Of a stretch of 64,000 bases of DNA, positions 27,687 to 45,157 are shown in pieces. Both the position numbers and the translations under genes were made by a program. Below the pieces are notes generated by a model. The model made no database searches and had not been told where the DNA came from. It saw nothing but the letters and a program-made list of their open reading frames with translations. The DNA is taken from positions 2,055-66,054 of the forward strand of contig URVV01000006.1 in NCBI GenBank assembly GCA_900551455.1, given 5' to 3'. Numbering within the stretch: position 1 is the first letter of the stretch; the number at the start of each line of letters is the position of its first letter. The stretch comes from an uncultured Mycoplasmatota bacterium (GTDB lineage: Bacteria; Bacillota_I; Bacilli_A; RF39; UBA660).

Positions 27687-28766
27687 TTATTTTGATTTAA
27701 TTTGGGCTTTTTCTTCGATTAATTCTAATAAAATTGATTTTAGGATAGTTATCATATCTTTAGTATTAATACTTATTTTAAAGTCACTGGTATTGTTAAT
27801 AATATTTTCTAATATTAGATGATCATCTTTAAAATAATACGTTCCTTTTTTGGTTATTTCTTTTATTTTGTCAAAGAGATAATCATTCGGTATGGTTACT
27901 TTGTTCCATTTTGCTAAGGAGGTAGTTTCTTCTTTTGGGGAAATAGCTGCTAAGAGATATAATTCAGTTATCTTTATGTTATCTATTTTAAATTTACTGG
28001 TATTTATATATTTTATAAAATTATTCATATTAGTATTTATTAAATATGTTAGGATTAATGAGATATAAATACTATCTTCATTAGGGTTATTTTCTTCTTG
28101 TAAGAGATAGAATTTTATTAATGAAGCAATGGTATTTAAATGGCTAGTATTTATTTCTTTTTTGTTAAAGAGATTTGGATAGTATTTTATATCTAAAAGA
28201 TAATCAAAAATTTCATAAAATTCAGTAATAGGAATTTTGATTTTTTTTTCGGTAGTTAAGATATATAGGTATTCTTCTTCAAGATAGTATGGGTTATGAA
28301 GAATGGTATTTGCTATTTCTTCCCTTTTTTGGTTATATTCAGGTGCTAAGTCGTTTTTATGCATTTTTAATTTAGTAAATTTGTCTATTAAATTAGTTAT
28401 TTCTTCTTTATTTTTTGATTTTAAAATATTATTTATATCTAAATTATCTTTATTATATTTATTTATGGTATCGGATTTTTCTTGATATATTGATAGAATA
28501 CTGTTAAGCAGTGTATCTATGTGTTCTTCTTTTGATTTTAATTGAATTTTTATTTTTAGGTTGTTTACTTTCCTTAGAAAATCATCAATGATTTCTTGTT
28601 CTTCTTGATAAATTTTTTTATCATAGATACTTCCACTTAGCGTTAGGAGGGTTAAATAGAAGTTTACTTTTAAATCTTTTTGATAGATTGTTCTAGGTAT
28701 TTCACTGTTTTTTTCTAAGAGGTTTATTAAAAATTGTGGATATGTCATGATTTCATTTACTTCCAT
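27687..28766 (-). CDS. Hypothetical protein
   Basis: 359-aa soluble ORF, Asn/Lys/Ile-rich. Confidence 0.3.
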   Translation of the reverse strand: MEVNEIMTYPQFLINLLEKNSEIPRTIYQKDLKVNFYLTLLTLSGSIYDKKIYQEEQEIIDDFLRKVNNLKIKIQLKSKEEHIDTLLNSILSIYQEKSDTINKYNKDNLDINNILKSKNKEEITNLIDKFTKLKMHKNDLAPEYNQKREEIANTILHNPYYLEEEYLYILTTEKKIKIPITEFYEIFDYLLDIKYYPNLFNKKEINTSHLNTIASLIKFYLLQEENNPNEDSIYISLILTYLINTNMNNFIKYINTSKFKIDNIKITELYLLAAISPKEETTSLAKWNKVTIPNDYLFDKIKEITKKGTYYFKDDHLILENIINNTSDFKISINTKDMITILKSILLELIEEKAQIKSK

Positions 28767-28830: not shown

Positions 28831-29355
28831 TTATTTTATGATCTCTTCATTGATATAATTTTCATTAATTTTATCGATGCTTTTATCTTCTTCGCTATCT
28901 AAGTTATCCCAAGTTTCTTCTTCATCAACGGATGAAATTTTTACTTTAGTGTCACCGATTATTTCAAGTCCAAGTTCTTTTTCTATTTCTAGATTAATAT
29001 TGGTACCATCAGATTTTGCTGAGATGCAAGTTGGTTGTTTTAAACTTCTTACAATTATATCTTTGTTAACGATATCTTTGTTAGAAGTTGACATTTTTTC
29101 TTCTTCAGTATAGGTTATTTTTTTTGTTATAACAGCGGTTTTTGTATCTGAATCATATGAATACCAGATATTTGCATCAAAACTACCATTTATTAGAATT
29201 TTTCCATTATCTTCCCTAGCAGAAAAATTATGGTTAATGATCCAGCAACCTAAGATGGTGGTAGGAACTTGTTCTACGGTTATTTGATAGGAATTACGAT
29301 ATTTTTTCTTTCCTTTTCCAATGACGGCTTTGGTAACTATCTCTTTGTATGCCAT
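28831..29355 (-). CDS. cotE: Spore coat morphogenetic protein CotE homologue
   Basis: Blockwise similarity to B. subtilis CotE recalled from memory: YKEIVTKAV.GKG, ILGCWIINH, ANIWYSYDSDTKT.V, LKQPTC, acidic C-terminus; likely start MAYKEIV. Confidence 0.6.
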   Translation of the reverse strand: MAYKEIVTKAVIGKGKKKYRNSYQITVEQVPTTILGCWIINHNFSAREDNGKILINGSFDANIWYSYDSDTKTAVITKKITYTEEEKMSTSNKDIVNKDIIVRSLKQPTCISAKSDGTNINLEIEKELGLEIIGDTKVKISSVDEEETWDNLDSEEDKSIDKINENYINEEIIK

Positions 29356-29406
29356 TATATCACTCCTCACTTTAAGATATGCTAAAATAATAAAAAAAGC
29401 ACTTTT

Positions 29407-33688: not shown

Positions 33689-35113
33689 TTAACCTCTTTT
33701 CTGATTCTTTAGTTTGAAAATTATATAACATATTAGTAGGTATACTCCTATTAATAATAGTGATTTTAAATAGCTAGCTTGTTTGATTGGAATTATAAAT
33801 TCTACAAGTATTAAGATAATGCATAAGATAATATTTTCGTATAAAATTGTTAAAATCTTTTCTAAATAATTCTTTTCTTTTTGATACTTATTTGTTAGAT
33901 AGATATGATTTATTATTATAGATAAAAGCATAGCAATTATGGTACTTAAAATATCTCCATACATTAGGCTATATCCCATTCGATAAAAGGAATTTATAAG
34001 TGGGATCGTTAAGATTAATTTAAAGATTAGACCTGTTATTAGACTTATAAGAATTATTTTTTTATTTTGAATACTTTTGAAGGTTATATCGTATAGGGAT
34101 ATAAAAATTGCTAAAAAATTTAATATTAGTAAATAGATTGATTTACTTGAATCATAAAATATAACATTACATATTAAGGGAGAAATAATACTGAATATTA
34201 TTGATAGTGGTAAAGTTATACGAATTGATAGATATATTTTATCAAAAACATTCCCTACTTTATGGTATTTTTTAGTAATATATTCCAGGATAAATATGAG
34301 GTAATTAATGATTGTTAATCCATAGAAGTAGATAAAGGTTATGTCATTATCTATTTGAGGAATAGCATAGCCATATCTTGTAGTTAAGATTAAATATAGG
34401 AGAATAATTGATATATAGTAGTAACTATTTTTTACTATATTAATGATACTTGTGGGGTAACAATTTGTCAATACTTTTTTAATTTCTTCGTGGTAGTTTA
34501 CTTTAAGAGTTTTCTTATCTTGAAGGTTCTTTTTTGATTGTAATTTGATTATTTCATATATGATTATTAAGATTACTAGAAAGCTTATTATTTTTGATAA
34601 ATATAGAAGAGAAATGGCAAGGGTGTTTTTTAAATGAAAGATTCTAAAGCTTAATGTTGTAATTATTATAAGGAGAAACGAATCAATTATATAGTAGGTA
34701 TTTAGAATAAGGCTTGGATTTTTATATTTATTTGTTTCTAAATAATCTGTAAGAATATTTAAAGTTGGTTCAATTGTTATGGTTAATCCCATTAGAAGAA
34801 AGATAATAAATAAGTCTTCTAATTTTAGAGCGTTAGAGGCAATGTCACTCAGAATAAGTCCTAGTAGCAGGAAGAAAAATGAAATTACACTAATAGTTAA
34901 CATAGATAATTTTAAGAGTTTTATTTTACTCTTGTTATTAGAAATATTTTCAAGATTATCCTTAATGGTTATACTTTTGAAGAATGAAATGAAAACATTA
35001 TATAGGCTTAGTGATAAGACATAATAAAAAATGCTTTGTTTACCTACTAGATAATAAATTATAATAGTTGTTAATAATTCAATTGTTTTAATAATTATAT
35101 TTTTTTCCCTCAT
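33689..35113 (-). CDS. Polytopic integral membrane protein (12-14 TM; possibly MOP/Wzx-like flippase superfamily)
   Basis: 474 aa, almost entirely hydrophobic helices; no catalytic motifs recognised. Confidence 0.3.
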   Translation of the reverse strand: MREKNIIIKTIELLTTIIIYYLVGKQSIFYYVLSLSLYNVFISFFKSITIKDNLENISNNKSKIKLLKLSMLTISVISFFFLLLGLILSDIASNALKLEDLFIIFLLMGLTITIEPTLNILTDYLETNKYKNPSLILNTYYIIDSFLLIIITTLSFRIFHLKNTLAISLLYLSKIISFLVILIIIYEIIKLQSKKNLQDKKTLKVNYHEEIKKVLTNCYPTSIINIVKNSYYYISIILLYLILTTRYGYAIPQIDNDITFIYFYGLTIINYLIFILEYITKKYHKVGNVFDKIYLSIRITLPLSIIFSIISPLICNVIFYDSSKSIYLLILNFLAIFISLYDITFKSIQNKKIILISLITGLIFKLILTIPLINSFYRMGYSLMYGDILSTIIAMLLSIIINHIYLTNKYQKEKNYLEKILTILYENIILCIILILVEFIIPIKQASYLKSLLLIGVYLLICYIIFKLKNQKRG

Positions 35114-35189
35114 AACCGTTCCCTACTTTATTTAATTTTAACAAATTAATGGTTTTTTTTCAAGTAAAAGTATGCTAAATGATTAAAGA

Positions 35190-35212
35190 AAAAAAGTTCA
35201 ATGAACTTTTTT
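35190..35212 (-). terminator. Rho-independent terminator ending the bacteriocin operon
   Basis: AAAAAGTTCA-at-GAACTTTTT hairpin a few nt after the peptide stop, T-run on minus strand. Confidence 0.7.
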
Positions 35213-35217
35213 TCTTT

Positions 35218-35382
35218 TTATTTTACGGGACAATATGTTTTGGTTACGAATCTTCTTATGGCACTGCCAACATATTTTCCTAAATTATAAACTGTATTTA
35301 TAGCTTTTGATATGGCGTTAATCCAAGAAGATGTGATGGCTCCGCCAGTTATTTCAGTCATTTGTTTTTGCTTTAGTTCCAT
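35218..35382 (-). CDS. Bacteriocin precursor peptide B with double-glycine leader (54 aa): MELKQKQMTEITGG / AITSSWINAISKAINTVYNLGKYVGSAIRRFVTKTYCPVK
   Basis: Hand-translated; ATG at 35380-35382 with RBS AAAGGAAG; 14-aa GG leader; cationic 40-aa mature peptide with AxxxA/GxxxG motifs; below 60-aa ORF-track cutoff. Confidence 0.75.
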   Translation of the reverse strand: MELKQKQMTEITGGAITSSWINAISKAINTVYNLGKYVGSAIRRFVTKTYCPVK

Positions 35383-35399
35383 ATTTTTACTTCCTTTCT

Positions 35400-35537
35400 T
35401 TAATTACGACAGCGACTTGGATTGGTATAACCGCTAAACAAACCGATTAAAAATACTATTGCTGAGGCAATACCGCTAACTAAACGCCAAGATACGCCAC
35501 CGGGGACTTCAGTCATTTGTTTTTCATTTAATTCCAT
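35400..35537 (-). CDS. Bacteriocin precursor peptide A with double-glycine leader (45 aa): MELNEKQMTEVPGG / VSWRLVSGIASAIVFLIGLFSGYTNPSRCRN
   Basis: Hand-translated; ATG at 35535-35537 with RBS AAAGGAG overlapping upstream stop; GG leader near-identical to peptide B; hydrophobic GxxxS/GxxxG mature peptide. Confidence 0.75.
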   Translation of the reverse strand: MELNEKQMTEVPGGVSWRLVSGIASAIVFLIGLFSGYTNPSRCRN

Positions 35538-35548
35538 TAATTTCTCCT

Positions 35549-35968
35549 TTACAGATATTCTTTTAAATATTTAACTAGAGTTTTATTTTCTTTGACTATT
35601 TTTATTTCATAAACATTGTTATTAATACTTTTTAGATTGGAAATATTTAAATAAATATAAGTATAACTGTTACCAGATTCATCGAGATATGTATGATCAT
35701 CAATATGATTTACTTGATACCGATATTCTTGATTATTAAGTAATAAGGTGTTATTATTTATAAAATATTTTAAATAGTTAGATTTTGTTACAACTATTAA
35801 TTCATTATCTTTATACTTTCCTTCTGTTAAGTAATATGATTGATATTTATAGGTAAAAATAACATACAGGAAGATAATAATTATTATTAGAATAATTAAA
35901 CTAATATTATATATTTTAGGATATTTATTCCTTTTTAAAATTATTTCTATATCGAGAATGTCATTCAT
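35549..35968 (-). CDS. Small bitopic membrane protein in bacteriocin operon (candidate truncated accessory or immunity protein)
   Basis: 139 aa; one N-terminal TM (ISLIILIIIIIFLYVIF), Tyr/Asn-rich ectodomain; ATGAATGA-type overlap with the transporter gene. Confidence 0.45.
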   Translation of the reverse strand: MNDILDIEIILKRNKYPKIYNISLIILIIIIIFLYVIFTYKYQSYYLTEGKYKDNELIVVTKSNYLKYFINNNTLLLNNQEYRYQVNHIDDHTYLDESGNSYTYIYLNISNLKSINNNVYEIKIVKENKTLVKYLKEYL

Positions 35969-38033
35969 TATAGGTTAAGATACTCCTTTTACTTAGGTTG
36001 ATAACTTTAGTATATAAATCCATATTGTCTAGTCGATGGGAAATAATGATAATAGTTTTATGTTGATAGTTGTCAAAGATGTTTTTTAAAATTTTCCTTT
36101 CAAGGTTTATGTCTATTTCATTTAGACCTTCATCTATTAAGATATATGAAGATTCTTTTAATAAGGCCCTAGCTAAAATAATACGTTGTCTTTGTCCACC
36201 AGATAAATTTACACCATTTTCCTCTAAGGGATAATTATATGAGAGTAAATTATCTTTAACTAAATCGTCTACATATGTTATTTTACAAACTTTTAAAAAT
36301 TCTTCTTCAGAGATGTTTCTTGATAAAGTTATATTATTTCTAATAGTATCTGTATATAATAATTCATTTTGTGATAAATAAGTAAATTTTGTTCTAATAT
36401 CTTTTATAGTTAAATCATTTATATCATAATTATTAAGATATACTTTGTCTCTTGACACAGGATAATATTTAAATAATATCTTTAATAGGGATGATTTTCC
36501 ACTACCAGAAGGACCTAATATCAAGACTTTTTCAGCTTTTTTTATTTCTAACGATAAATTCTTAAAGACCATATGTTTTTGATTATAACTAAATGATAAA
36601 TTGTTTATTTTTATAGTGCCATAAACATTTAAATTACTTAGCTTGTCTAGCTCATCATATTTATAATTTAAAATTGTATTAATTCTTTTTATACTGTTTT
36701 TGGCATAAAAGAATTCTTGGTAAAAATCAAAAACTTGGCTAAGAGGATTTATAAAGTAAGATAACAATGTATTATAGGTAAGTATACTACCAATAGTGAA
36801 TGATTTATCCATTATATAAGTTGTTCCTAAATAAGTTATAAATAATATTAAAAGACTACTTACTATGTTTTTTAGAAATTCTTCAGATATTGATAACTTT
36901 GATAATGATAAATTATCATTAATATAATTTAGGTATTTATAATTAATTTTCTTGGTAAAATTAGACTCTAGATTTAAACCCTTTATAGTTTCATAACTAC
37001 TTATGGTTTCAGTTAAGAATGAATTTACCTTGGCACCACTTTCTTGAATAGTATCAGTATATCTTTTAATACTATTTTTGTAAGCCAAGAAAATTAAGAG
37101 GTAGATGAATGCTAATAATAATACAATATAAGTTAATTCTTTATTAATGATAAAGAGAATTATTAAGGTAAAAATTGCTAGAATGCTATCTAGAAAGATA
37201 GTTATTATTATTTTAGAAATAACATTCTTTATATAGAATAAATCATTAATACGTGAGATTACTTCTCCTGTCGACTTATTTTTGTAATAACTATATGGAA
37301 GGGAGACTATTTTGTTAATTGTGGTAGTTATAATGGATAAATCTATTTTTTGATTTAAATATAGTAAGAGATTATTTCTTAAAAATTCACTAACTTCTTT
37401 AATGAATAAAATGAAGATAAAAATTATTAAAACAATTACTAGATTTAGTTTGTTAGTATAGATAATTTTATCAATTATTACTTTAAAGTGATAACTATAT
37501 ATACATGTAAAAATAGTTGCTATTAAAGTAAGAAGAATCAATTTAATTATTATTTTTTTATTATTTTTGATAGTATTAACTATAACATTAAGAAGATAAT
37601 TATTTTCACTATAAGTTGGTAATTTTTTATATGGTTCTAGTAAGAGGATATTTCCTGTAAATAGAGTATTAAATTCATTAATAGACATAGATACCATTCC
37701 TTTAGCTGGATCCATTATAGTAATTTTATTATTCTTTATTTTGTATACTACAACAAAGTGATAATAATTATTAATTACTATTTGACTAATGAAGGGAGTT
37801 ATATCTGGGGATAATGATGTAATGTTATCTATTTTATATCCTTTGGAAGTTAAGCCAATTTCTTTGGCTGCTAGAGATAAATTATAAAATGTTGTACCTT
37901 CTTTAGTGGTGCTTGTTAGTTCTAATAAACGTTCTTTAGAAATATTTCCTCCATAATACTTAATGATGGACAAAAGACAGGCACTACCACACTCTTTTAT
38001 ACCTTCTTGTAATACGGTATATTTTTTTGTCAC
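35961..38033 (-). CDS. Bacteriocin-processing ABC transporter with N-terminal C39 peptidase domain (LagD/ComA/SunT family)
   Basis: 690 aa; C39 Cys motif QEGIKECGSACLLSI, His (YHFVVVY) and Asp; 6 TM; Walker A LGPSGSGKSS, signature LSGGQRQR, Walker B ILIDE; GTG start at 38033-38031 with RBS GGAGGTGA. Confidence 0.85.
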   Translation of the reverse strand: MTKKYTVLQEGIKECGSACLLSIIKYYGGNISKERLLELTSTTKEGTTFYNLSLAAKEIGLTSKGYKIDNITSLSPDITPFISQIVINNYYHFVVVYKIKNNKITIMDPAKGMVSMSINEFNTLFTGNILLLEPYKKLPTYSENNYLLNVIVNTIKNNKKIIIKLILLTLIATIFTCIYSYHFKVIIDKIIYTNKLNLVIVLIIFIFILFIKEVSEFLRNNLLLYLNQKIDLSIITTTINKIVSLPYSYYKNKSTGEVISRINDLFYIKNVISKIIITIFLDSILAIFTLIILFIINKELTYIVLLLAFIYLLIFLAYKNSIKRYTDTIQESGAKVNSFLTETISSYETIKGLNLESNFTKKINYKYLNYINDNLSLSKLSISEEFLKNIVSSLLILFITYLGTTYIMDKSFTIGSILTYNTLLSYFINPLSQVFDFYQEFFYAKNSIKRINTILNYKYDELDKLSNLNVYGTIKINNLSFSYNQKHMVFKNLSLEIKKAEKVLILGPSGSGKSSLLKILFKYYPVSRDKVYLNNYDINDLTIKDIRTKFTYLSQNELLYTDTIRNNITLSRNISEEEFLKVCKITYVDDLVKDNLLSYNYPLEENGVNLSGGQRQRIILARALLKESSYILIDEGLNEIDINLERKILKNIFDNYQHKTIIIISHRLDNMDLYTKVINLSKRSILTYNE

Positions 38034-38073
38034 CTTCTCACCTCCTCATTAATATTGTTCGTAAAAAGAAAAG

Positions 38074-38108
38074 AGTTTTACTTTTTTTTAGTAAAACTTT
38101 TTTTATTT
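38074..38108 (-). terminator. Rho-independent terminator after murC
   Basis: AGTTTTACT-ttttttt-AGTAAAACT hairpin with flanking T/A runs. Confidence 0.6.
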
Positions 38109-38173
38109 TTTTTAGAAATTAGAGGGATGGTACTAAATATTCTAGGAAGATTAGAGGAATTTCAATATATTGT

Positions 38174-39560: not shown

Positions 39561-40847
39561 ATGAAAAATAAATTTATTAAATCAACAATCATATTGATTA
39601 TTGGAGGATGTATTACTAAGATACTGGCAATGGTTATTAAGATATTTTTAACTAGGAGTATTGGAGATGATGGAATTGGCCTTTATATGATGATACTACC
39701 TACTTTTAATCTGTTTATTACTTTGTCGACGATGTCTTTATCTACTTCAATTAGTAAGGTTGTAGCTGAAGGAAAAAATGGAAAGAGAACGGTTTTATCA
39801 CTTGTACCCGTTAGTGTTATTTATAATATTTTTTTGATGTTTTTGTTAATTATATTAACGCCTGTTATTTCTTTGAAATTATTAAATAATAAATTAACAT
39901 ATTATCCTATTATGGGAATTAGTTTTACTTTACCTTTTATATGCATTTCTGGTATTTTAAAAGGATATTTTTATGGTAAGGAAAATATGATGCCTTATGT
40001 TATTTCAAATGTTATTGAACAATTAGTGAGACTTATATTTATTATTTTTCTTATTCCTAAGTTAATGGTTTATGGAATAGGGGTGGCTGCTCTGGGAGTG
40101 GTACTTATTAATATAATTAGTGAGGGAACTTCGATTATTTCTTTAATTTTATTTATTCCTAATAAGAAGATTTGCTTAAGTGATTTAAAGATGGATAAGA
40201 ATATTCTTAAGGATGTTTTAAATGTTTCTTTATCTTCTACAGGAAGTAGGTTAATTGGATCTATTTCTTACTTCTTAGAACCTATTATTCTTACTTATAT
40301 ACTTACTAAAGGGGGATATCAAAATAGTTATATAGTAATGGAATATGGGGTTATTACGGGATATGTTTTTCCCCTTTTATTAATACCGTCATTTTTTACA
40401 ATGGCAATATCAACTTCATTATTGCCAGTAATTTCTAGTAGTTATTCAAGGGGACATTTTAGGTATACGAAAAACAAATTGAAACAAGCAATATGGATTT
40501 CTTTAGGAATTGGATGTTTTTTTACTATAATATTTATGATTTTACCAGGAACACTTCTTAAGTTTATATATAATACGAGTAAAGGGGTTAATTATATTAG
40601 AATTGTAGCACCATTTTTCTTATTACATTATATACAGGGACCTTTAACTTCATATTTACAGGCAGTTGATAGAGCTAAGAATGCTATGATGGGAACTTTG
40701 GTAGGAGCTATTATTAAGAATATTTTGTTATTGATATTACCAATATTTATGGGAATATGGGGGTTTGTTATTGCTAGTTTGATTAATATTTTATATGTTA
40801 CTATTCAACATATTTATTATGCAAAAAAATCTCTTGGTAATACCTAG
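39561..40847 (+). CDS. MOP-superfamily flippase (polysaccharide-biosynthesis/SpoVB/MurJ-like)
   Basis: 428 aa, ~12 TM; family-typical N-terminus (ILAMVIKIFLTRSIGDDGIGLYMMILPTFNLF). Confidence 0.55.
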   Translation: MKNKFIKSTIILIIGGCITKILAMVIKIFLTRSIGDDGIGLYMMILPTFNLFITLSTMSLSTSISKVVAEGKNGKRTVLSLVPVSVIYNIFLMFLLIILTPVISLKLLNNKLTYYPIMGISFTLPFICISGILKGYFYGKENMMPYVISNVIEQLVRLIFIIFLIPKLMVYGIGVAALGVVLINIISEGTSIISLILFIPNKKICLSDLKMDKNILKDVLNVSLSSTGSRLIGSISYFLEPIILTYILTKGGYQNSYIVMEYGVITGYVFPLLLIPSFFTMAISTSLLPVISSSYSRGHFRYTKNKLKQAIWISLGIGCFFTIIFMILPGTLLKFIYNTSKGVNYIRIVAPFFLLHYIQGPLTSYLQAVDRAKNAMMGTLVGAIIKNILLLILPIFMGIWGFVIASLINILYVTIQHIYYAKKSLGNT

Positions 40848-41031: not shown

Positions 41032-42648
41032 ATGGGAAAAAGAAAAAAGAAAACAAATGATAAGAAATTGATGATAGATAATCAGGTTAATTTAAAGGAA
41101 GATAAAAATATTTCTTTAGATAAAATGAAAAAATATGGAAAAAGATTTTCTTTATTATTTTTGATATGGATATGTATTTTTGCTATAGGACTAGTTAATA
41201 AGTCTTTACAAAATGATACTTTTTATACAATAAAAATTGGAAAGCTTATTCTTAATAATGGAATCGATATGATGGATCACTTTTCTTTTCATACGGGACT
41301 TAAGTATACTTATCCTCATTGGTTATATGATGTATTTATTTATGTTATATACAAAATTGGGGGGTTAAGAGGATTATATTTATCTTCGATAGGAATATTT
41401 GGAGTACTTTTAATAATTGTGTTTAAGGTTAATAAAAAGATATGTGAAAAGACTGTTGTAGCAGCATTTGCAACTTTTATTTGTTCTTTGGCTATTAGTG
41501 GTTTTGTCACTGCTAGAGCACAGTTGGTTAGTTTTCTGCTTTTTGCTTTAGAAATTTATTTTATTGAAGATTTTCTTAAAAATAAGAAAAAGAGTGATGT
41601 TGTTGGTTTATTTATAATTTCATTGCTTTTATGTAATATTCACGTTGCAGTTTGGCCTTTTTATTTTATTATCTACCTACCCTATTTGGCTGAATATATA
41701 ATTAGTTTTATTTGGAGTAAGATTAGGTTTAAAAAAGATAATAAGTTTTATAACTTTATTAACTCCAAGTTTGTTTTTGAAAGAAATAAGAATATTAAAT
41801 ATCTATTTATTATAATGATTTTTAGTTTGTTAACTGGATTTATTACTCCGATTGGAGATACACCATTTACTTATTTAATAAAAACTATGATGGGAAACTC
41901 ACAAAGTTATATTCAAGAACATCATATGATTAGTTGGAAAGAGAGTCCTTTTACAATTATTATTGCCGGGGAAACAATATTTTTAGTTTTGATTTCTAAG
42001 GTTAAATTGAGAGACTTTTTTATGATATCGGGATTGGTTTTGATGTCAATTGTTTCGATTAGACATTTATCTTTGTTGTCTTTAATAGGAACTATTTGTT
42101 TTGGAAGAGTATTTGCAATGTTTTTGAATGATTATAATTTTGATGTAGATAAGATGCTATTGCCATTCTTTTATAAGAGAAAAATTGTAATAATTAGTTT
42201 TGCTTTAGTGATTATAATTACAGGAGTGGGTTTATATTTTCATTTAAGAGATAATTATGTAGAAGAAGATTTTTATCCAGTAGAAGCTGTTAAATATCTT
42301 AAGGAAAATGAGGATATTAGTAAAATGCGAATATTTAATGATTATAATTTTGGTAGTTATCTTTTATATAATGATATTCCTGTGTTTATTGATTCTAGAG
42401 CGGATTTATATACAAAGGAATTTAGTGGATTTGATTATGATATTTTAGATGATTATCACTTTATTATGAATAATTATCAAGAAAAATTTGATTTTTATGG
42501 AATAACTCATATACTTGTTTATAAGGAAGAAAATTCTTTGTATCAGGTTCTTAAGAGTAATAGTGATTATAAATTATTGTATGAGGATGATTATTTTGTA
42601 TTGTATAAGAAGATTGGCGATTCGGGATTACGGGTTACTTTTGGATAG
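41032..42648 (+). CDS. Hypothetical polytopic membrane protein with C-terminal soluble domain (possibly GT-C-like glycosyltransferase)
   Basis: 538 aa; basic N-terminus, ~10 TM, ~150-aa hydrophilic C-terminus. Confidence 0.3.
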   Translation: MGKRKKKTNDKKLMIDNQVNLKEDKNISLDKMKKYGKRFSLLFLIWICIFAIGLVNKSLQNDTFYTIKIGKLILNNGIDMMDHFSFHTGLKYTYPHWLYDVFIYVIYKIGGLRGLYLSSIGIFGVLLIIVFKVNKKICEKTVVAAFATFICSLAISGFVTARAQLVSFLLFALEIYFIEDFLKNKKKSDVVGLFIISLLLCNIHVAVWPFYFIIYLPYLAEYIISFIWSKIRFKKDNKFYNFINSKFVFERNKNIKYLFIIMIFSLLTGFITPIGDTPFTYLIKTMMGNSQSYIQEHHMISWKESPFTIIIAGETIFLVLISKVKLRDFFMISGLVLMSIVSIRHLSLLSLIGTICFGRVFAMFLNDYNFDVDKMLLPFFYKRKIVIISFALVIIITGVGLYFHLRDNYVEEDFYPVEAVKYLKENEDISKMRIFNDYNFGSYLLYNDIPVFIDSRADLYTKEFSGFDYDILDDYHFIMNNYQEKFDFYGITHILVYKEENSLYQVLKSNSDYKLLYEDDYFVLYKKIGDSGLRVTFG

Positions 42649-42650
42649 AA

Positions 42651-42713
42651 AAAACTATAAGTTTTTATAAATGCCTACCTTATGGGGCATTTCATTTAAG
42701 CTTATAGTTTTTT
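42651..42713. terminator. Nested-hairpin bidirectional terminator between convergent genes
   Basis: AAACTATAAG...CTTATAGTTT outer stem, inner AAATGCC...GGCATTT stem, flanking T-runs. Confidence 0.5.
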
Positions 42714-43736
42714 TGGGGGAATAAGTGAATAAATGCGGATTTTATTTAAAGAATTGTGATGTTCTTTAAAACAATTTAATAAAAGGGCTTCAGAGATGTG
42801 GCTATTAGGACATAGTTTAAGGTATTCTTCATTTGTAAATGTTTCAATTAATGTGTTGTAATAACCTTCTTTTAAATCATTGCGCATTAAGAGGATAGAT
42901 GATTTTATTTGACATTGACTTATTAATGATAGTAGATAGTTAGTTTTATCATTGTATTCAATGTCTGTTGTCAAAAGAAGATATGGGTACTCTTTATCAA
43001 AGTTGTTTGAAGCAATAATATCTTTTCGGCGATTGTATTCTTCTTCAGATAGACACATATAGTCAGCATAGGTTTTGGAAGTGATATTTAATTCATCAAA
43101 GTTAAAGTTATAACTTATTGCTTCTTTAGTGAGGGTTCTGTTTACAAATAATAAATTATATTTGACTTTTATTAAATCTTTTCTTATTGATTGATGATCT
43201 TTATTTTTGATACATTCTTCTAAATAATATAACGTAGCTATTAAATAGTCTTTTTCGATAGTTAAATGAAGAGTATTATTGTTATTTAATTCTTCCAGAT
43301 AATCTTCAGTTAGACTTTCTTTAGAAGATGTGGTTATAATGTCTGTGAGAATACTGGATTGTTTAATAATTTCATTAAGGGAAAAGATTACTCTTTTTGA
43401 AATTAAGTTTGATGAGGTACTTTCTATTAGATCTTTTGTAGTTTCTTTTATATTGGTATTAAATTTAGTATTTGAATCTATATAAGTTTTTATAGTTATA
43501 GCTATGATGGAATCCATTTTTTGATATATTGTGTTTTCCATAGAGGTAATTCTCTTTAAATAAGATAATGTTTGGGGATAGTCAGGGGTATTGTTATGTT
43601 TATTTATTTCTAAGGTAGCTAATCTTCGATATGTTGTCATAATTTTACTGGTAATATCAAATAGTTCATCTACGAGAAAAGATACTATTTCAAGATCTTC
43701 AGGATTTATTTCAAAGCCAAAGGCAAATGGTTCCAT
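42702..43736 (-). CDS. Hypothetical protein
   Basis: 344-aa soluble ORF. Confidence 0.3.
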   Translation of the reverse strand: MEPFAFGFEINPEDLEIVSFLVDELFDITSKIMTTYRRLATLEINKHNNTPDYPQTLSYLKRITSMENTIYQKMDSIIAITIKTYIDSNTKFNTNIKETTKDLIESTSSNLISKRVIFSLNEIIKQSSILTDIITTSSKESLTEDYLEELNNNNTLHLTIEKDYLIATLYYLEECIKNKDHQSIRKDLIKVKYNLLFVNRTLTKEAISYNFNFDELNITSKTYADYMCLSEEEYNRRKDIIASNNFDKEYPYLLLTTDIEYNDKTNYLLSLISQCQIKSSILLMRNDLKEGYYNTLIETFTNEEYLKLCPNSHISEALLLNCFKEHHNSLNKIRIYSLIPPKKL

Positions 43737-43855: not shown

Positions 43856-44410
43856 TTAGTTAGTCAATAAAATTATTGGGATATCACTTTTTTCTATCCT
43901 TTCAATTTTCTTTAAATCAGGTGTTATTCTTGCATAATATTCTTTTTTATTATTTACGCAATAATAATTATAATAAATATACTTATTGTCTTTTCCGTAA
44001 ATTTTTTTCATATTAGTATTGGTGCTACAAAGTTCATCATCATCTGTTTTGGTAATTTTATCATTTGATTGATATAATTCTTTGCCTGTATCGACATCAT
44101 ATGCTGTAATATCATAATGTATTAAATAAAATTTATCGTTATCCCATAAGATATGATGATTTTCTATTGCTAGATTGCTTGAAGTAGGCAGATTGTATAA
44201 TTTTTCATATTCATTATACTCTTTTATTTTATACATAGAGTATTGATTTGTTTCACTCATCGTATTGGTTAATGCTATTACATAATCATTTTCACTATCT
44301 GAAATAATGTTTAGTTGATTTTTATAAAAAGTTTGTTTTTGTTTACTGCAACCAATTGTTACGAAACATAATAACATTATTGAAATTATAGTAATTTTTT
44401 TATTTTTCAT
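43856..44410 (-). CDS. Lipoprotein
   Basis: Lipobox FVTIGC. Confidence 0.5.
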   Translation of the reverse strand: MKNKKITIISIMLLCFVTIGCSKQKQTFYKNQLNIISDSENDYVIALTNTMSETNQYSMYKIKEYNEYEKLYNLPTSSNLAIENHHILWDNDKFYLIHYDITAYDVDTGKELYQSNDKITKTDDDELCSTNTNMKKIYGKDNKYIYYNYYCVNNKKEYYARITPDLKKIERIEKSDIPIILLTN

Positions 44411-44551: not shown

Positions 44552-44628
44552 TGGTAGCGACGGAGGGGGTCGAACCCACGACCTATCGGGTATGAACCGA
44601 TCGCTCTAGCCAACTGAGCTACATCGCC
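44552..44628 (-). tRNA. tRNA-Met (anticodon CAT, elongator type), CCA encoded
   Basis: Hand-folded cloverleaf: GGCGATG acceptor, GCTC/GAGC D-stem, ATCGG-TTCATAC-CCGAT anticodon arm, TTCGA T-loop, ...ACCA; very close to Bacillus elongator tRNA-Met. Confidence 0.8.
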
Positions 44629-44719: not shown

Positions 44720-45157
44720 TTATAGGTATGACTTTAAAAGTTCGATGTTTTCTTCGCCAAATTTTTTAAGTTCTTTAGCTAAGTGAATAATATTTTTGTC
44801 GGCTTCATTTTTATATTTATCAATTAGTTTATCTATATCAATGTTTCCCATTGTAAATCCTCTTATTAACATATCTGCTATTTTAGCGTCACTGTTATCT
44901 TTCATAAATTCCATAGAGATACCAATGGATGAAGATATTTTGGCAATGATATTAGTTCTTTTTGGAGATATTTTATTTTTCTTTAAAAGATTTTGACTCT
45001 TTTTTAAAAAACCTTCATACCCTTTTAGTTGTTTTTCTACTGTTGTTTTAATTTTATTATCTGATTTATTTAAGAGATTAATTAATTGGGTAGTTGATTT
45101 TACACCCATTTCAGCATTTTGGTAAATATATAATAATAATTCACTATTCTGATTCAT
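44720..45157 (-). CDS. Hypothetical protein
   Basis: 145-aa ORF. Confidence 0.3.
   Translation of the reverse strand: MNQNSELLLYIYQNAEMGVKSTTQLINLLNKSDNKIKTTVEKQLKGYEGFLKKSQNLLKKNKISPKRTNIIAKISSSIGISMEFMKDNSDAKIADMLIRGFTMGNIDIDKLIDKYKNEADKNIIHLAKELKKFGEENIELLKSYL

What the first reader, a model, noticed from the sequence alone, without database searches (positions are those of the whole stretch)
35190..38033. Compact, tightly coupled class-II bacteriocin export operon containing two GG-leader peptide genes missed by the ORF track
Four minus-strand genes sit between a murC terminator and a strong terminator: a C39-peptidase ABC transporter (GTG start, RBS GGAGGTGA), a 139-aa bitopic protein (ATGAATGA overlap with the transporter), and two precursor peptides whose RBS sits on the preceding stop. 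This is the canonical machinery for double-glycine-leader peptide export (LagD/ComA family). There is no nearby histidine kinase/response regulator, no recognisable immunity gene, and no flanking mobile element. It is a self-contained antimicrobial-peptide module embedded between murC and ppaC.
Basis: partly seen in the sequence, partly recalled or inferred. Interest (0 to 1): 0.85.

Follow-up and report, generated by a model that had tools for sequence, protein, structure and literature searches.

The report
Two-peptide bacteriocin operon, miniature accessory protein
This is a real four-gene operon in an uncultured gut bacterium that most likely makes, trims and exports a pair of small antimicrobial peptides; it is an ordinary kind of system, unusual only in its very small helper protein and in having no self-protection gene in the operon.

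Summary
On the minus strand, 35218-38033 carries four tightly packed genes. They are a 690-aa C39-peptidase ABC exporter with its catalytic residues and ATPase motifs, a 139-aa single-pass membrane protein overlapping it by 8 nt, and two double-glycine-leader peptides of 45 and 54 aa. A hairpin follows the last gene.

The same cassette recurs in all 15 distinct related loci examined from uncultured gut Bacilli/"Mycoplasmatota", including ones where the 139-aa protein is only about 25-30% identical. Both peptides are under purifying selection (dN/dS 0.15-0.39). Each keeps an invariant GxxxG motif and one invariant C-terminal cysteine. NCBI and JGI already name some orthologues of the 45-aa peptide "class IIb bacteriocin, lactobin A/cerein 7B family".

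The 139-aa protein belongs to no Pfam family. Its model most resembles membrane-fusion (adaptor) proteins, and it is a remote relative of NCBIfam's Mycoplasma MAG1140 family.

- The downstream neighbour is a sequence-orphan MurJ-fold flippase gene, not ppaC.
- Public gene callers do call both peptide genes.

No immunity gene, kinase/regulator pair or mobile element lies nearby.

Verdict: a class IIb-like bacteriocin operon, a new variant of a known kind, of modest interest.

The parts
35961..38033 (-). Peptidase-containing ABC transporter (PCAT), 690 aa, GTG start. C39 domain spans residues 4-135 (Gln9, Cys15, His92, Asp108), the six-helix ABC membrane domain 163-431, and the ATPase domain 490-636. 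ATPase motifs: Walker A GPSGSGKSS at 507, signature LSGGQ at 610, Walker B ILIDE at 631, H-loop His666.
   Evidence: Pfam (PF03412 E 1.9e-33, PF00664 1.1e-35, PF00005 1.7e-24). PDB phmmer (PCAT1 4ry2 E 1.6e-103; ComA 8hf4 8e-93). Motif positions. The exact protein is indexed in 131 blocks of the public assembly collection. NCBI MDO4395054 is named 'peptidase domain-containing ABC transporter [Mycoplasmatota bacterium]'.
35549..35968 (-). Miniature accessory protein, 139 aa, no cysteine. It has a short basic N-terminal helix, one transmembrane helix (residues 19-39), then an all-beta ectodomain of six strands with one short helix. It is translationally coupled to the transporter through an 8-nt overlap.
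35400..35537 (-). pepA precursor, 45 aa. The 14-aa double-glycine leader is MELNEKQMTEVPGG. The 31-aa hydrophobic mature peptide is VSWRLVSGIASAIVFLIGLFSGYTNPSRCRN (3385 Da, net charge +3, GxxxG at GLFSG, single Cys).
   Evidence: Conserved in 15 of 15 cassettes, with invariant G-x3-G, N-P and C. pN < pS in all pairs. 9 of 10 orthologues hit TIGR03949 (best 3.3e-7) and 6 of 10 hit PF10439 (best 2.1e-5). Some orthologues are named 'class IIb bacteriocin, lactobin A/cerein 7B family' by NCBI and JGI.
35218..35382 (-). pepB precursor, 54 aa. The 14-aa double-glycine leader is MELKQKQMTEITGG. The 40-aa cationic amphipathic mature peptide is AITSSWINAISKAINTVYNLGKYVGSAIRRFVTKTYCPVK (4435 Da, net charge +6, GxxxG at GKYVG, single Cys).
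   Evidence: Conserved in 13 of 13 complete copies, with invariant G-x3-G, R and C. dN/dS 0.15-0.39. 7 of 10 hit TIGR01847 and 5 of 10 hit TIGR03949. The pepA and pepB leaders are homologous (hhalign prob 95.8%).
35185..35217 (-). Terminator hairpin ending the operon: a 15-bp palindromic stem with A and U runs.
   Evidence: dG -14.4 kcal/mol, z -5.2. Hairpins with T runs are visible by eye at the same position in seven related loci (L007, L008, L009, L012, L013, L014, L015) but were not folded.
38034..38173 (-). murC-transporter spacer. It holds a weak A/U-rich hairpin plus T tract (about 38072-38108), then a conserved block ACGAACAATATTAATGAGGAGGTGA that contains the Shine-Dalgarno sequence. 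The promoter is not assigned.
   Evidence: The block CGAATAATAYTAxTGAGGAGGTGA recurs in L008, L009, L013, L023 and L021.

Best explanation
This is a class IIb-like two-peptide bacteriocin operon. One transcript would encode four products: the exporter, its small membrane partner and two precursor peptides.

Proposed mechanism:
1. The cytoplasmic C39 domain of the ABC transporter recognises the 14-residue double-glycine leaders, which have hydrophobic residues at -4, -7 and -12.
2. It cuts after Gly-Gly, and ATP hydrolysis drives the mature peptides across the membrane.
3. The 139-aa protein is anchored N-in/C-out. It carries an ectodomain like that of membrane-fusion proteins and probably sits on the outer face of the transporter as a cut-down ComB/LcnD-type accessory.
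4. Outside the cell, the 31-aa hydrophobic pepA and the 40-aa cationic amphipathic pepB are proposed to pair through their invariant GxxxG motifs. The pair would then permeabilise related bacteria in the gut.

What is shown: gene structure, domains, catalytic residues, conservation of the four-gene cassette, purifying selection on both peptides, and the fold of the accessory protein.

What is inferred: single-transcript expression, cleavage after GG, the accessory role of the 139-aa protein, pairing of the peptides, and antimicrobial activity.
For: - Domains and catalytic residues.
- Tight coupling: an 8-nt overlap, then 11-nt and 17-nt gaps, each with a ribosome-binding site.
- Same order of ABC, ~140-aa protein, pepA and pepB in 15 distinct related loci, in at least three different chromosomal contexts, down to about 25-30% identity of the small protein.
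- Only two GG-leader ORFs exist in the whole window, and both are here.
- pN < pS in every pairwise comparison of both peptides.
- GxxxG and Cys are invariant.
- Family-level hits to Bacteriocin_IIc, TIGR03949, TIGR01847 and lactococcin G-beta models.
- Orthologues are named class IIb bacteriocins by NCBI and JGI.
- The review PMC2850506 gives adjacent genes, GG leaders and GxxxG as the shared features of class IIb bacteriocins.
- MFP-like fold of the accessory protein.
- A terminator lies after pepB. The next gene has a promoter-like TTGAAA-17-TAAAAT site that recurs in related loci.
Against: - The window's own two peptides do not reach significance against any bacteriocin model. The best is lactococcin G-beta at E 0.067-0.14.
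- Much of the family-level similarity sits in the leader.
- No immunity gene is in or next to the operon. The class IIb review says one always accompanies the peptide genes.
- The leader is 14 residues, just under the 15-30 usually quoted.
- The accessory protein has no sequence match to HlyD-type families. Its Foldseek E-values are not significant.
- No promoter could be assigned.
- No activity, expression or mass-spectrometry data exist. The organism is uncultured.
Confidence: 0.7

Rival explanations
1. The two peptides are two independent one-peptide (class IId-like) bacteriocins that share an exporter. They are not an obligate pair.
For: The mature regions of pepA and pepB are unrelated; only the leaders align. 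The lactobin A/cerein 7B family includes peptides first described singly (own knowledge). Nothing here tests synergy.
Against: pepA and pepB co-occur in fixed order in every complete cassette seen, across three or more genomic contexts. The single exception is L011, where pepB carries an in-frame stop. Both keep an invariant GxxxG and one invariant Cys.
Confidence: 0.12
2. The peptides are not toxins. They are exported GG peptides with another role, such as cell-to-cell signalling, like ComC or BlpC. Alternatively they are membrane or cell-surface factors of the producer.
For: PCATs also export pheromones (PMC7018657). Weak ComC/BlpC/EntF-type model hits occur for a few members. The absence of an immunity gene would then need no explanation. 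The cassette appears vertically inherited at a fixed site beside cell-wall genes in one clade.
Against: No histidine kinase, response regulator or Rgg-type regulator lies within about 13 kb on either side. Mature lengths of 31 and 40 aa, strong hydrophobicity or amphipathicity, cationic charge and GxxxG motifs fit pore-forming bacteriocins rather than pheromones. The most frequent and best model hits are bacteriocin families.
Confidence: 0.1
3. The 139-aa membrane protein is the immunity protein, or is both immunity and accessory, rather than a pure export accessory.
For: It is the only conserved cassette gene without an assigned role, and no other immunity candidate is conserved. The class IIb review notes that accessory proteins 'may be involved in immunity'. 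Small membrane proteins are typical immunity factors (own knowledge).
Against: Its closest structural matches are membrane-fusion adaptor proteins. It is translationally coupled to the transporter rather than to the peptides. Remote relatives (MAG1140 family) sit in NCBIfam next to a Mycoplasma PCAT model. In L019 and L021 a separate small hydrophobic ORF follows pepB and is a better immunity candidate there.
Confidence: 0.12
4. The downstream MurJ-fold 474-aa protein is functionally tied to the module. It could be a toxin-insensitive copy of the target, or an immunity transporter.
For: It directly follows the module in all 8 loci where a homologue was seen: the window, L007, L008 (= L022), L009, L012, L013, L015 and L023. 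It is a sequence orphan with no Pfam match. A second MOP-family flippase gene lies at 39561-40847.
Against: It has a promoter-like site of its own that recurs in related loci, behind the operon's terminator, and it overlaps ppaC. The whole murC to CotE neighbourhood is equally syntenic in that clade, so linkage is uninformative. No homologue directly follows the cassette in L010, L011, L014, L017 or L019.
Confidence: 0.05

Closest known systems
Peptidase-containing ABC transporters (PCAT1 of Clostridium thermocellum, ComA of Streptococcus, LagD of Lactococcus)
   Same: Same three-domain architecture, with full-length alignment to the solved PCAT1 and ComA structures. The Gln/Cys/His/Asp peptidase residues and all ATPase motifs are present. 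Substrates with GG leaders are encoded alongside.
   Different: It scores below the curated cut-offs of every NCBIfam PCAT model: TIGR01193 396 vs 523.85 bits, and NF045998 323.7 vs 500 bits. PCAT1 works without an accessory and ComA with a ~450-aa ComB (own knowledge). This one is coupled to a 139-aa partner.
Class IIb two-peptide bacteriocins (lactococcin G, plantaricin EF/JK; lactobin A/cerein 7B family, TIGR03949)
   Same: Two different adjacent peptide genes in one operon, GG leaders, a cationic or hydrophobic mature peptide of 31-40 aa, and a GxxxG motif in each. pepA orthologues hit TIGR03949 and are so named by NCBI and JGI.
   Different: There is no immunity gene in the operon. The leader is only 14 aa. 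Each peptide has an invariant cysteine 3-4 residues from the C-terminus in most copies (it is the last residue of pepB in L017), a feature not listed in the class IIb review. The window's own peptides fall below significance for all models.
HlyD/membrane-fusion-type bacteriocin accessory proteins (ComB, BlpB, LcnD, RtgB)
   Same: The gene follows the PCAT gene and is co-translated with it. The protein has an N-in single-pass anchor and an extracytoplasmic beta domain whose closest structural matches are membrane-fusion proteins.
   Different: It is about one third of the size. The model has no alpha-helical hairpin and no lipoyl domain. There is no detectable sequence similarity to HlyD-type Pfam families.
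NCBIfam NF045999 'MAG1140 family protein', listed next to NF045998 'Mbov_0121 family peptidase domain-containing ABC transporter' (Mycoplasma)
   Same: Similar length (126 vs 139 aa) and near full-length alignment. 35 of 79 family members give weak hits, far more than to any other model. It is likewise paired with a C39 ABC transporter family.
   Different: All scores are far below the 35-bit cut-off; the window protein scores 15.1 bits at E 0.019. No function is published. Only two papers in the library mention Mbov_0121 and none mentions MAG1140. No GG peptides were examined in Mycoplasma here.

Membership tests
Peptidase-containing ABC transporter (PCAT; C39 bacteriocin-processing exporter) | N-terminal C39 domain with catalytic Cys, His and Asp and the oxyanion Gln | tested here: met
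   PF03412 E 1.9e-33. Q9, C15, H92 and D108 align with the DCG, HFVV and DP motifs of PCAT1.
Peptidase-containing ABC transporter (PCAT; C39 bacteriocin-processing exporter) | ABC exporter membrane domain plus an ATPase domain with Walker A, Walker B, signature and H-loop motifs | tested here: met
   PF00664 and PF00005. Motifs at residues 507, 610, 631 and 664-668.
Peptidase-containing ABC transporter (PCAT; C39 bacteriocin-processing exporter) | Score above the curated cut-off of a named PCAT model (TIGR01193, TIGR03796, NF045998) | tested here: not met
   396.2 vs 523.85 bits, 372.4 vs 853.3 bits, and 323.7 vs 500 bits. It is a PCAT by architecture but belongs to no named subfamily.
Peptidase-containing ABC transporter (PCAT; C39 bacteriocin-processing exporter) | Cleaves after Gly-Gly and exports the peptide | not testable with these tools
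   Needs biochemistry. Only the co-located GG-leader substrates are shown.
Class IIb (two-peptide) bacteriocins | Two different peptide genes adjacent in the same operon | tested here: met
   pepA and pepB lie 17 nt apart, and the order is conserved in every complete cassette.
Class IIb (two-peptide) bacteriocins | Double-glycine leader of 15-30 residues | tested here: met
   A GG leader with hydrophobic residues at -4, -7 and -12 is present. At 14 residues it is one short of the quoted range.
Class IIb (two-peptide) bacteriocins | GxxxG (or AxxxA/SxxxS) motif in both peptides | tested here: met
   pepA has GLFSG and pepB has GKYVG. Both glycines are invariant, in 15 and 13 sequences respectively.
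Class IIb (two-peptide) bacteriocins | Immunity gene in the same operon | tested here: not met
   No ORF lies between pepB and the terminator. No conserved extra gene appears across the cassettes.
Class IIb (two-peptide) bacteriocins | Antimicrobial activity that needs both peptides in roughly equal amounts | not testable with these tools
   Needs synthetic or expressed peptides.
Class IIb (two-peptide) bacteriocins | Match to a bacteriocin sequence model (PF10439, TIGR03949, TIGR01847) | tested here: inconclusive
   The window's peptides give nothing at E <= 0.05. Among orthologues, 9 of 10 pepA hit TIGR03949 (best 3.3e-7), 6 of 10 pepA hit PF10439 (best 2.1e-5) and 7 of 10 pepB hit TIGR01847. 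Some orthologues carry the NCBI name.
HlyD/membrane-fusion-type bacteriocin accessory protein (ComB/LcnD/BlpB) | Single N-terminal membrane anchor with an extracytoplasmic body, encoded next to the PCAT gene | tested here: met
   The model has a TM helix at 19-39. K12, R13, K15 and K18 lie before it. There is an 8-nt overlap with the PCAT gene.
HlyD/membrane-fusion-type bacteriocin accessory protein (ComB/LcnD/BlpB) | MFP-type beta-barrel domain | tested here: inconclusive
HlyD/membrane-fusion-type bacteriocin accessory protein (ComB/LcnD/BlpB) | Alpha-helical hairpin and lipoyl domains; sequence match to HlyD-family models | tested here: not met
   Only 100 residues follow the TM helix, and they form six strands and short helices. 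None of the 79 members appears among the HlyD-type Pfam matches listed at E <= 1.
NCBIfam NF045999 MAG1140 family | HMM score of at least 35 bits | tested here: not met
   15.1 bits, E 0.019, covering 19-135 of the protein and 9-124 of 126 model positions. 35 of 79 relatives hit weakly, best 6.2e-6. It is a remote relative, not a member.

The most novel reading that the evidence does not exclude
The cassette is a minimal, self-sufficient toxin unit with two unusual properties.

1. The two mature peptides act as a covalent heterodimer, joined by a disulfide between their single, invariant near-C-terminal cysteines (pepA ...RCRN, pepB ...YCPVK). A disulfide-linked heterodimer is not a described form of class IIb bacteriocin.
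2. The 139-aa MFP-like protein acts both as the outer-face export adaptor and as the producer's only self-protection. This would explain why no immunity gene accompanies the peptides in most cassettes.

The evidence allows this reading. Cys is invariant in 15 of 15 pepA and 13 of 13 pepB sequences. In 11 of 15 cassettes each peptide has exactly one Cys. No conserved immunity gene was found.

Nothing tests it directly, however. Four cassettes have a second Cys in pepA, which would allow an internal bond instead. The module encodes no thiol oxidoreductase. The organism lives in an anoxic gut.
Probability: 0.1. Interest if true: 0.6.

Novelty: new variant of a known kind. Interest (0 to 1): 0.35.

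Why it matters
Bacteriocins shape competition between related gut bacteria, and almost all characterised class II systems come from cultured lactic acid bacteria.

- **An unstudied lineage.** This cassette is common in public gut and rumen assemblies. The exact pepA sequence is on 243 contigs and the family has 301 clusters at 90% identity. It belongs to an uncultured, small-genome, spore-forming lineage that NCBI files under Mycoplasmatota, whose ecology is essentially unknown.
- **A minimal accessory protein.** The operon pairs a PCAT with a 139-aa membrane-fusion-like partner, about a third the size of ComB or LcnD. The role of accessory proteins in Gram-positive peptide export is still unclear. 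A version reduced to an anchor plus one beta domain would be a convenient system for structural and functional work. It may also give a function to the unannotated MAG1140 family of mycoplasmas.
- **Practical limits.** The two peptides are short, unmodified and easy to synthesise, so the antimicrobial claim is cheap to test. None of this overturns current understanding.

Tried and rejected
- **139-aa protein as a PedC-type thiol-disulfide accessory.** Rejected. It has no cysteine and no such model hit.
- **Sequence link from the 139-aa family to HlyD/MFP Pfam families or to any solved structure.** None was found. Seventy-nine members were scanned at E <= 1, and a profile was run against PDB sequences.
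- **474-aa downstream gene as the immunity gene.** It has no Pfam, NCBIfam, PADLOC or PDB sequence hit. Its AF2 model is a MurJ-type flippase. It has a promoter-like site of its own, and no homologue directly follows the cassette in several loci. It is treated as a housekeeping neighbour.
- **Anti-Shine-Dalgarno pairing in the murC-transporter spacer.** The pairing (CCAUCCCUC with GAGGAGGUG) appears in the MFE fold, but z is only -1.7 and relatives lack the upstream arm. Dropped.
- **Known RNA elements.** Rfam at gathering threshold finds only one tRNA in the whole window, at 44555-44628.
- **Sigma-70 promoter upstream of the transporter.** The only consensus-like site (38165..38136, 9 of 12) lies upstream of the murC-proximal hairpin. 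No confident assignment was possible.
- **Horizontal-transfer signature.** GC of the module (21-29%) is not distinct from neighbouring membrane-protein genes. No transposase or integrase is nearby.
- **Searches that gave little.** The metagenome-contig scan with the 139-aa profile returned one short locus. The afdb50 fold library was unavailable. Literature searches for MAG1140/Mbov_0121, for RF39 with bacteriocin, and for PCATs in Mollicutes gave nothing on this system.

Full report
**1. The observation**

- A 690-aa ORF (35961-38033) starts at GTG, 7 nt after GAGGAGGTGA.
- A 139-aa ORF (35549-35968) has its ATG overlapping the transporter's TGA in ATGAATGA.
- A 45-aa ORF (35400-35537) has an AAGGAG site overlapping the preceding TAA.
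- A 54-aa ORF (35218-35382) has an AAAGGAAG site beginning 3 nt after the preceding stop.
- The gaps between the last three genes are 11 and 17 nt.
- A 15-bp palindromic hairpin follows at 35185-35217. It folds at -14.4 kcal/mol with z -5.2.
- After murC there is a weak 9-bp A/U hairpin and a T tract.

A scan of all six frames of the 64-kb window looked for Met-initiated ORFs with a Gly-Gly leader and hydrophobic residues at -4, -7 and -12. It returns these two ORFs and nothing else.

The GTG start is supported by relatives. They have ATG at the homologous position behind the same GAGGAGGTGA block.

**2. The transporter**

Pfam finds Peptidase_C39 (E 1.9e-33), ABC_membrane (1.1e-35) and ABC_tran (1.7e-24). 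The protein aligns over residues 3-677 with the solved PCAT1 (E 1.6e-103), and over 13-685 with ComA.

Several motifs are conserved:
- The ECGSAC motif (Cys15) with Gln9 upstream, the HFVVVY motif (His92) and the MDPAKG motif (Asp108).
- Walker A, the signature motif, Walker B with its Glu, and the H-loop.

It is a PCAT by architecture. It scores below the curated cut-offs of all named NCBIfam PCAT models.

**3. The peptides are real genes**

The exact peptides are called by public pipelines. NCBI lists them as MDO4395056 and MDO4395057, 'hypothetical protein', in a 'Mycoplasmatota bacterium' MAG. They occur on 243 and 215 contigs respectively.

Using the 139-aa protein as a handle, I collected 15 distinct related loci, L007-L023 (L018 and L022 repeat L017 and L008). 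These came from genome, metagenome and assembly collections. Every locus that extends far enough has the same order: PCAT, a ~140-aa protein, pepA, then pepB.

This holds where the small protein is only 25-30% identical to the window's. It also holds where the chromosomal context differs:
- murC...MurJ-like...ppaC in the window's clade.
- rpsU and a GatB/YqeY-like gene after the cassette in L010, L011 and L019.
- A tRNA after it in L017.
- A sortase-pilin island after it in L014.

Invariant residues:
- pepA keeps GG, G-x3-G, N-P and one Cys invariant in 15 of 15 sequences, within a GYTNP-like motif.
- pepB keeps GG, G-x3-G, one Arg of the RR pair and one Cys invariant in 13 of 13.

In every pairwise codon comparison, non-synonymous divergence (pN 0.13-0.38) is well below synonymous divergence (pS 0.51-0.85). 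That gives dN/dS of 0.15-0.39 where dS is not saturated.

**4. What kind of peptides**

The leaders MELNEKQMTEVPGG and MELKQKQMTEITGG place Leu, Met and Val/Ile at -12, -7 and -4. These are the positions PCATs read (PMC7018657).

Mature pepA has 31 aa, GRAVY +0.61 and net charge +3. It contains SGIAS and GLFSG motifs. Mature pepB has 40 aa and net charge +6. Its maximal helical hydrophobic moment is 0.67, and it contains AISKA and GKYVG motifs.

Adjacent genes, GG leaders and GxxxG motifs are the shared features of class IIb bacteriocins in the review PMC2850506.

At the model level the window's own peptides are not significant; the best is lactococcin G-beta at E 0.067-0.14. Their orthologues are:
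- 9 of 10 pepA hit TIGR03949, class IIb lactobin A/cerein 7B (best 3.3e-7).
- 8 of 10 pepA hit lactococcin G-beta/enterocin 1071B (best 4.4e-5).
- 6 of 10 pepA hit Pfam Bacteriocin_IIc (best 2.1e-5).
- 7 of 10 pepB hit TIGR01847, and 5 of 10 hit TIGR03949.

A profile search with pepA finds 301 clusters at 90% identity. Some are already named 'class IIb bacteriocin, lactobin A/cerein 7B family' by NCBI and JGI. The peptide family is thus a recognised kind and highly diversified.

**5. The 139-aa protein**

It has no Pfam family and no cysteine, so it is not a PedC-type oxidoreductase. It has 100 homologues at 90% clustering. A full HMMER scan of 1.84 billion representatives gives 250 hits, nearly all of the full-length ones 134-153 aa.

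AlphaFold2 with a 20-sequence alignment gives pLDDT 84. The model has a short N-terminal helix, a TM helix at 19-39, then six strands with one short helix and a C-terminal helix.

No member matches HlyD-type Pfam models, and the family profile matches no PDB sequence.

The only sequence link is to NCBIfam NF045999, the 'MAG1140 family protein'. The window protein hits it at E 0.019 over nearly the full length. Thirty-five of 79 family members hit it, best 6.2e-6, whereas no other model is hit by more than four. NF045999 sits beside NF045998, the 'Mbov_0121 family peptidase domain-containing ABC transporter' of mycoplasmas. The transporter here also hits that model below its cut-off.

I conclude that this is a miniature membrane-fusion-like PCAT accessory, reduced to an anchor plus one beta domain, and remotely related to an unstudied Mycoplasma family. 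The accessory role is inferred from fold, topology and translational coupling.

**6. What is not there**

No histidine kinase, response regulator, Rgg-type regulator, transposase or integrase is encoded between about 21 and 51 kb. The neighbours that could be identified are:
- a GGDEF protein, RecG, CotE, NrnA-like DHH/DHHA1, acetate kinase and CBS-PPase;
- two MOP flippases, MurC, an M29 peptidase, LigA, and rpoA with ribosomal protein genes.

No ORF lies between pepB and the terminator, and no further gene is conserved across the cassettes.

The 474-aa gene downstream has no sequence-family hit. Its model (pLDDT 87.7, pTM 0.87) matches MurJ in the first 14 Foldseek hits, with TM 0.47-0.67. 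It has a promoter-like TTGAAA-17-TAAAAT site of its own that recurs in related loci, and it overlaps ppaC. No homologue directly follows the cassette in L010, L011, L014, L017 or L019. I treat it as a cell-wall housekeeping neighbour.

So the module lies between murC and a MurJ-like gene, not directly next to ppaC. The lack of an immunity gene is a genuine departure from the class IIb pattern. In two distant cassettes (L019, L021) a third small hydrophobic, leaderless ORF follows pepB and may fill that role there. The window has nothing comparable.

**7. Regulation**

This is unresolved. The spacer upstream of the transporter has a consensus-like sigma-70 site upstream of the murC-proximal hairpin. 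Just 5' of the Shine-Dalgarno sequence there is a block, ACGAACAATATTA. Variants of it recur in L008, L009, L013, L021 and L023 (CGAATAATAYTA in L008, L013 and L023) although the rest of the spacer differs. From memory it resembles the streptococcal ComX box TACGAATA. This was not tested.

**8. Verdict**

This is a class IIb-like two-peptide bacteriocin export operon of an uncultured gut bacterium.

It is a new variant of a known kind for two reasons: the accessory protein is a previously undescribed miniature form, and the operon has no immunity gene. The peptide family is already recognised by automated annotation. Antimicrobial activity, peptide pairing, the role of the invariant cysteines and the role of the small protein are all untested. 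Interest is modest.

Noticed in passing
window 33689-35113 (-): This 474-aa multi-pass membrane protein has no Pfam, NCBIfam, PADLOC or PDB sequence hit. Its AlphaFold model (pLDDT 87.7) matches the lipid II flippase MurJ in the top 14 Foldseek hits, so it is a sequence-orphan MurJ-fold protein. It overlaps the ppaC start by 43 nt and has a promoter-like TTGAAA-17-TAAAAT site of its own (35163..35135). A second MOP-family gene lies at 39561-40847 (+).
   Followed up: yes
window 28831-29370 (-): A clear CotE outer spore coat protein (Pfam E 8.7e-46) sits alongside murC in a genome that NCBI files under Mycoplasmatota. The organism is therefore probably walled and spore-forming rather than a wall-less mollicute. 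Compare PMC10868615 on losses of sporulation and peptidoglycan in these orders.
   Followed up: partly
window 38034-38060 (-), and L008, L009, L013, L021, L023 upstream of the transporter gene: A conserved block, (A)CGAA(T/C)AATA(Y)TA, lies immediately 5' of GAGGAGGTGA in otherwise divergent spacers. It resembles the streptococcal ComX box TACGAATA (from memory). It could be a promoter -10 region giving a very short 5' UTR, or an operator.
   Followed up: partly
L019 1531-1690 and L021 3365-3520: In two distant cassettes, a third small hydrophobic ORF follows pepB. The sequences are ...LNILAKSIFAIGQLVGTYTRLVGW* and ...LNILIVSIFNIGTYFGTFLRNLYSIIVC*. It has no GG leader and no ATG, GTG or TTG start in frame. 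The two are similar to each other and loosely similar to the pepB core. It is a candidate immunity peptide or a leaderless paralogue, and is absent from the window.
   Followed up: partly
L011 6602-6769: In this MAG, pepB carries an in-frame TAG directly after the GG-Ala codons (MKELEKKEMLEISGGA*LTASML...). This is either a pseudogene or an assembly or strain variant.
   Followed up: no
L014 5934-8787 and L023 2193-2807: There is local variation around the cassette. In L014 a TED/SpaA pilin plus sortase cluster follows pepB instead of the MurJ-like gene. In L023 an extra 204-aa minus-strand gene sits between murC and the transporter.
   Followed up: no
window 41032-42648 (+), 42702-43736 (-), 43856-44410 (-), 44720-45157 (-), 27687-28766 (-): Five sizeable ORFs (538, 344, 184, 145 and 359 aa) have no Pfam match at E <= 0.001. 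The first three are conserved in position upstream of the Polysacc_synt/MurJ-like gene in same-species contigs.
   Followed up: no
pepA of L008, L009, L013, L023: Four of 15 pepA orthologues carry a second cysteine nine residues before the invariant one (IGC.SGYTNP..C). This would allow an internal disulfide loop and complicates the idea of an inter-peptide bond.
   Followed up: partly
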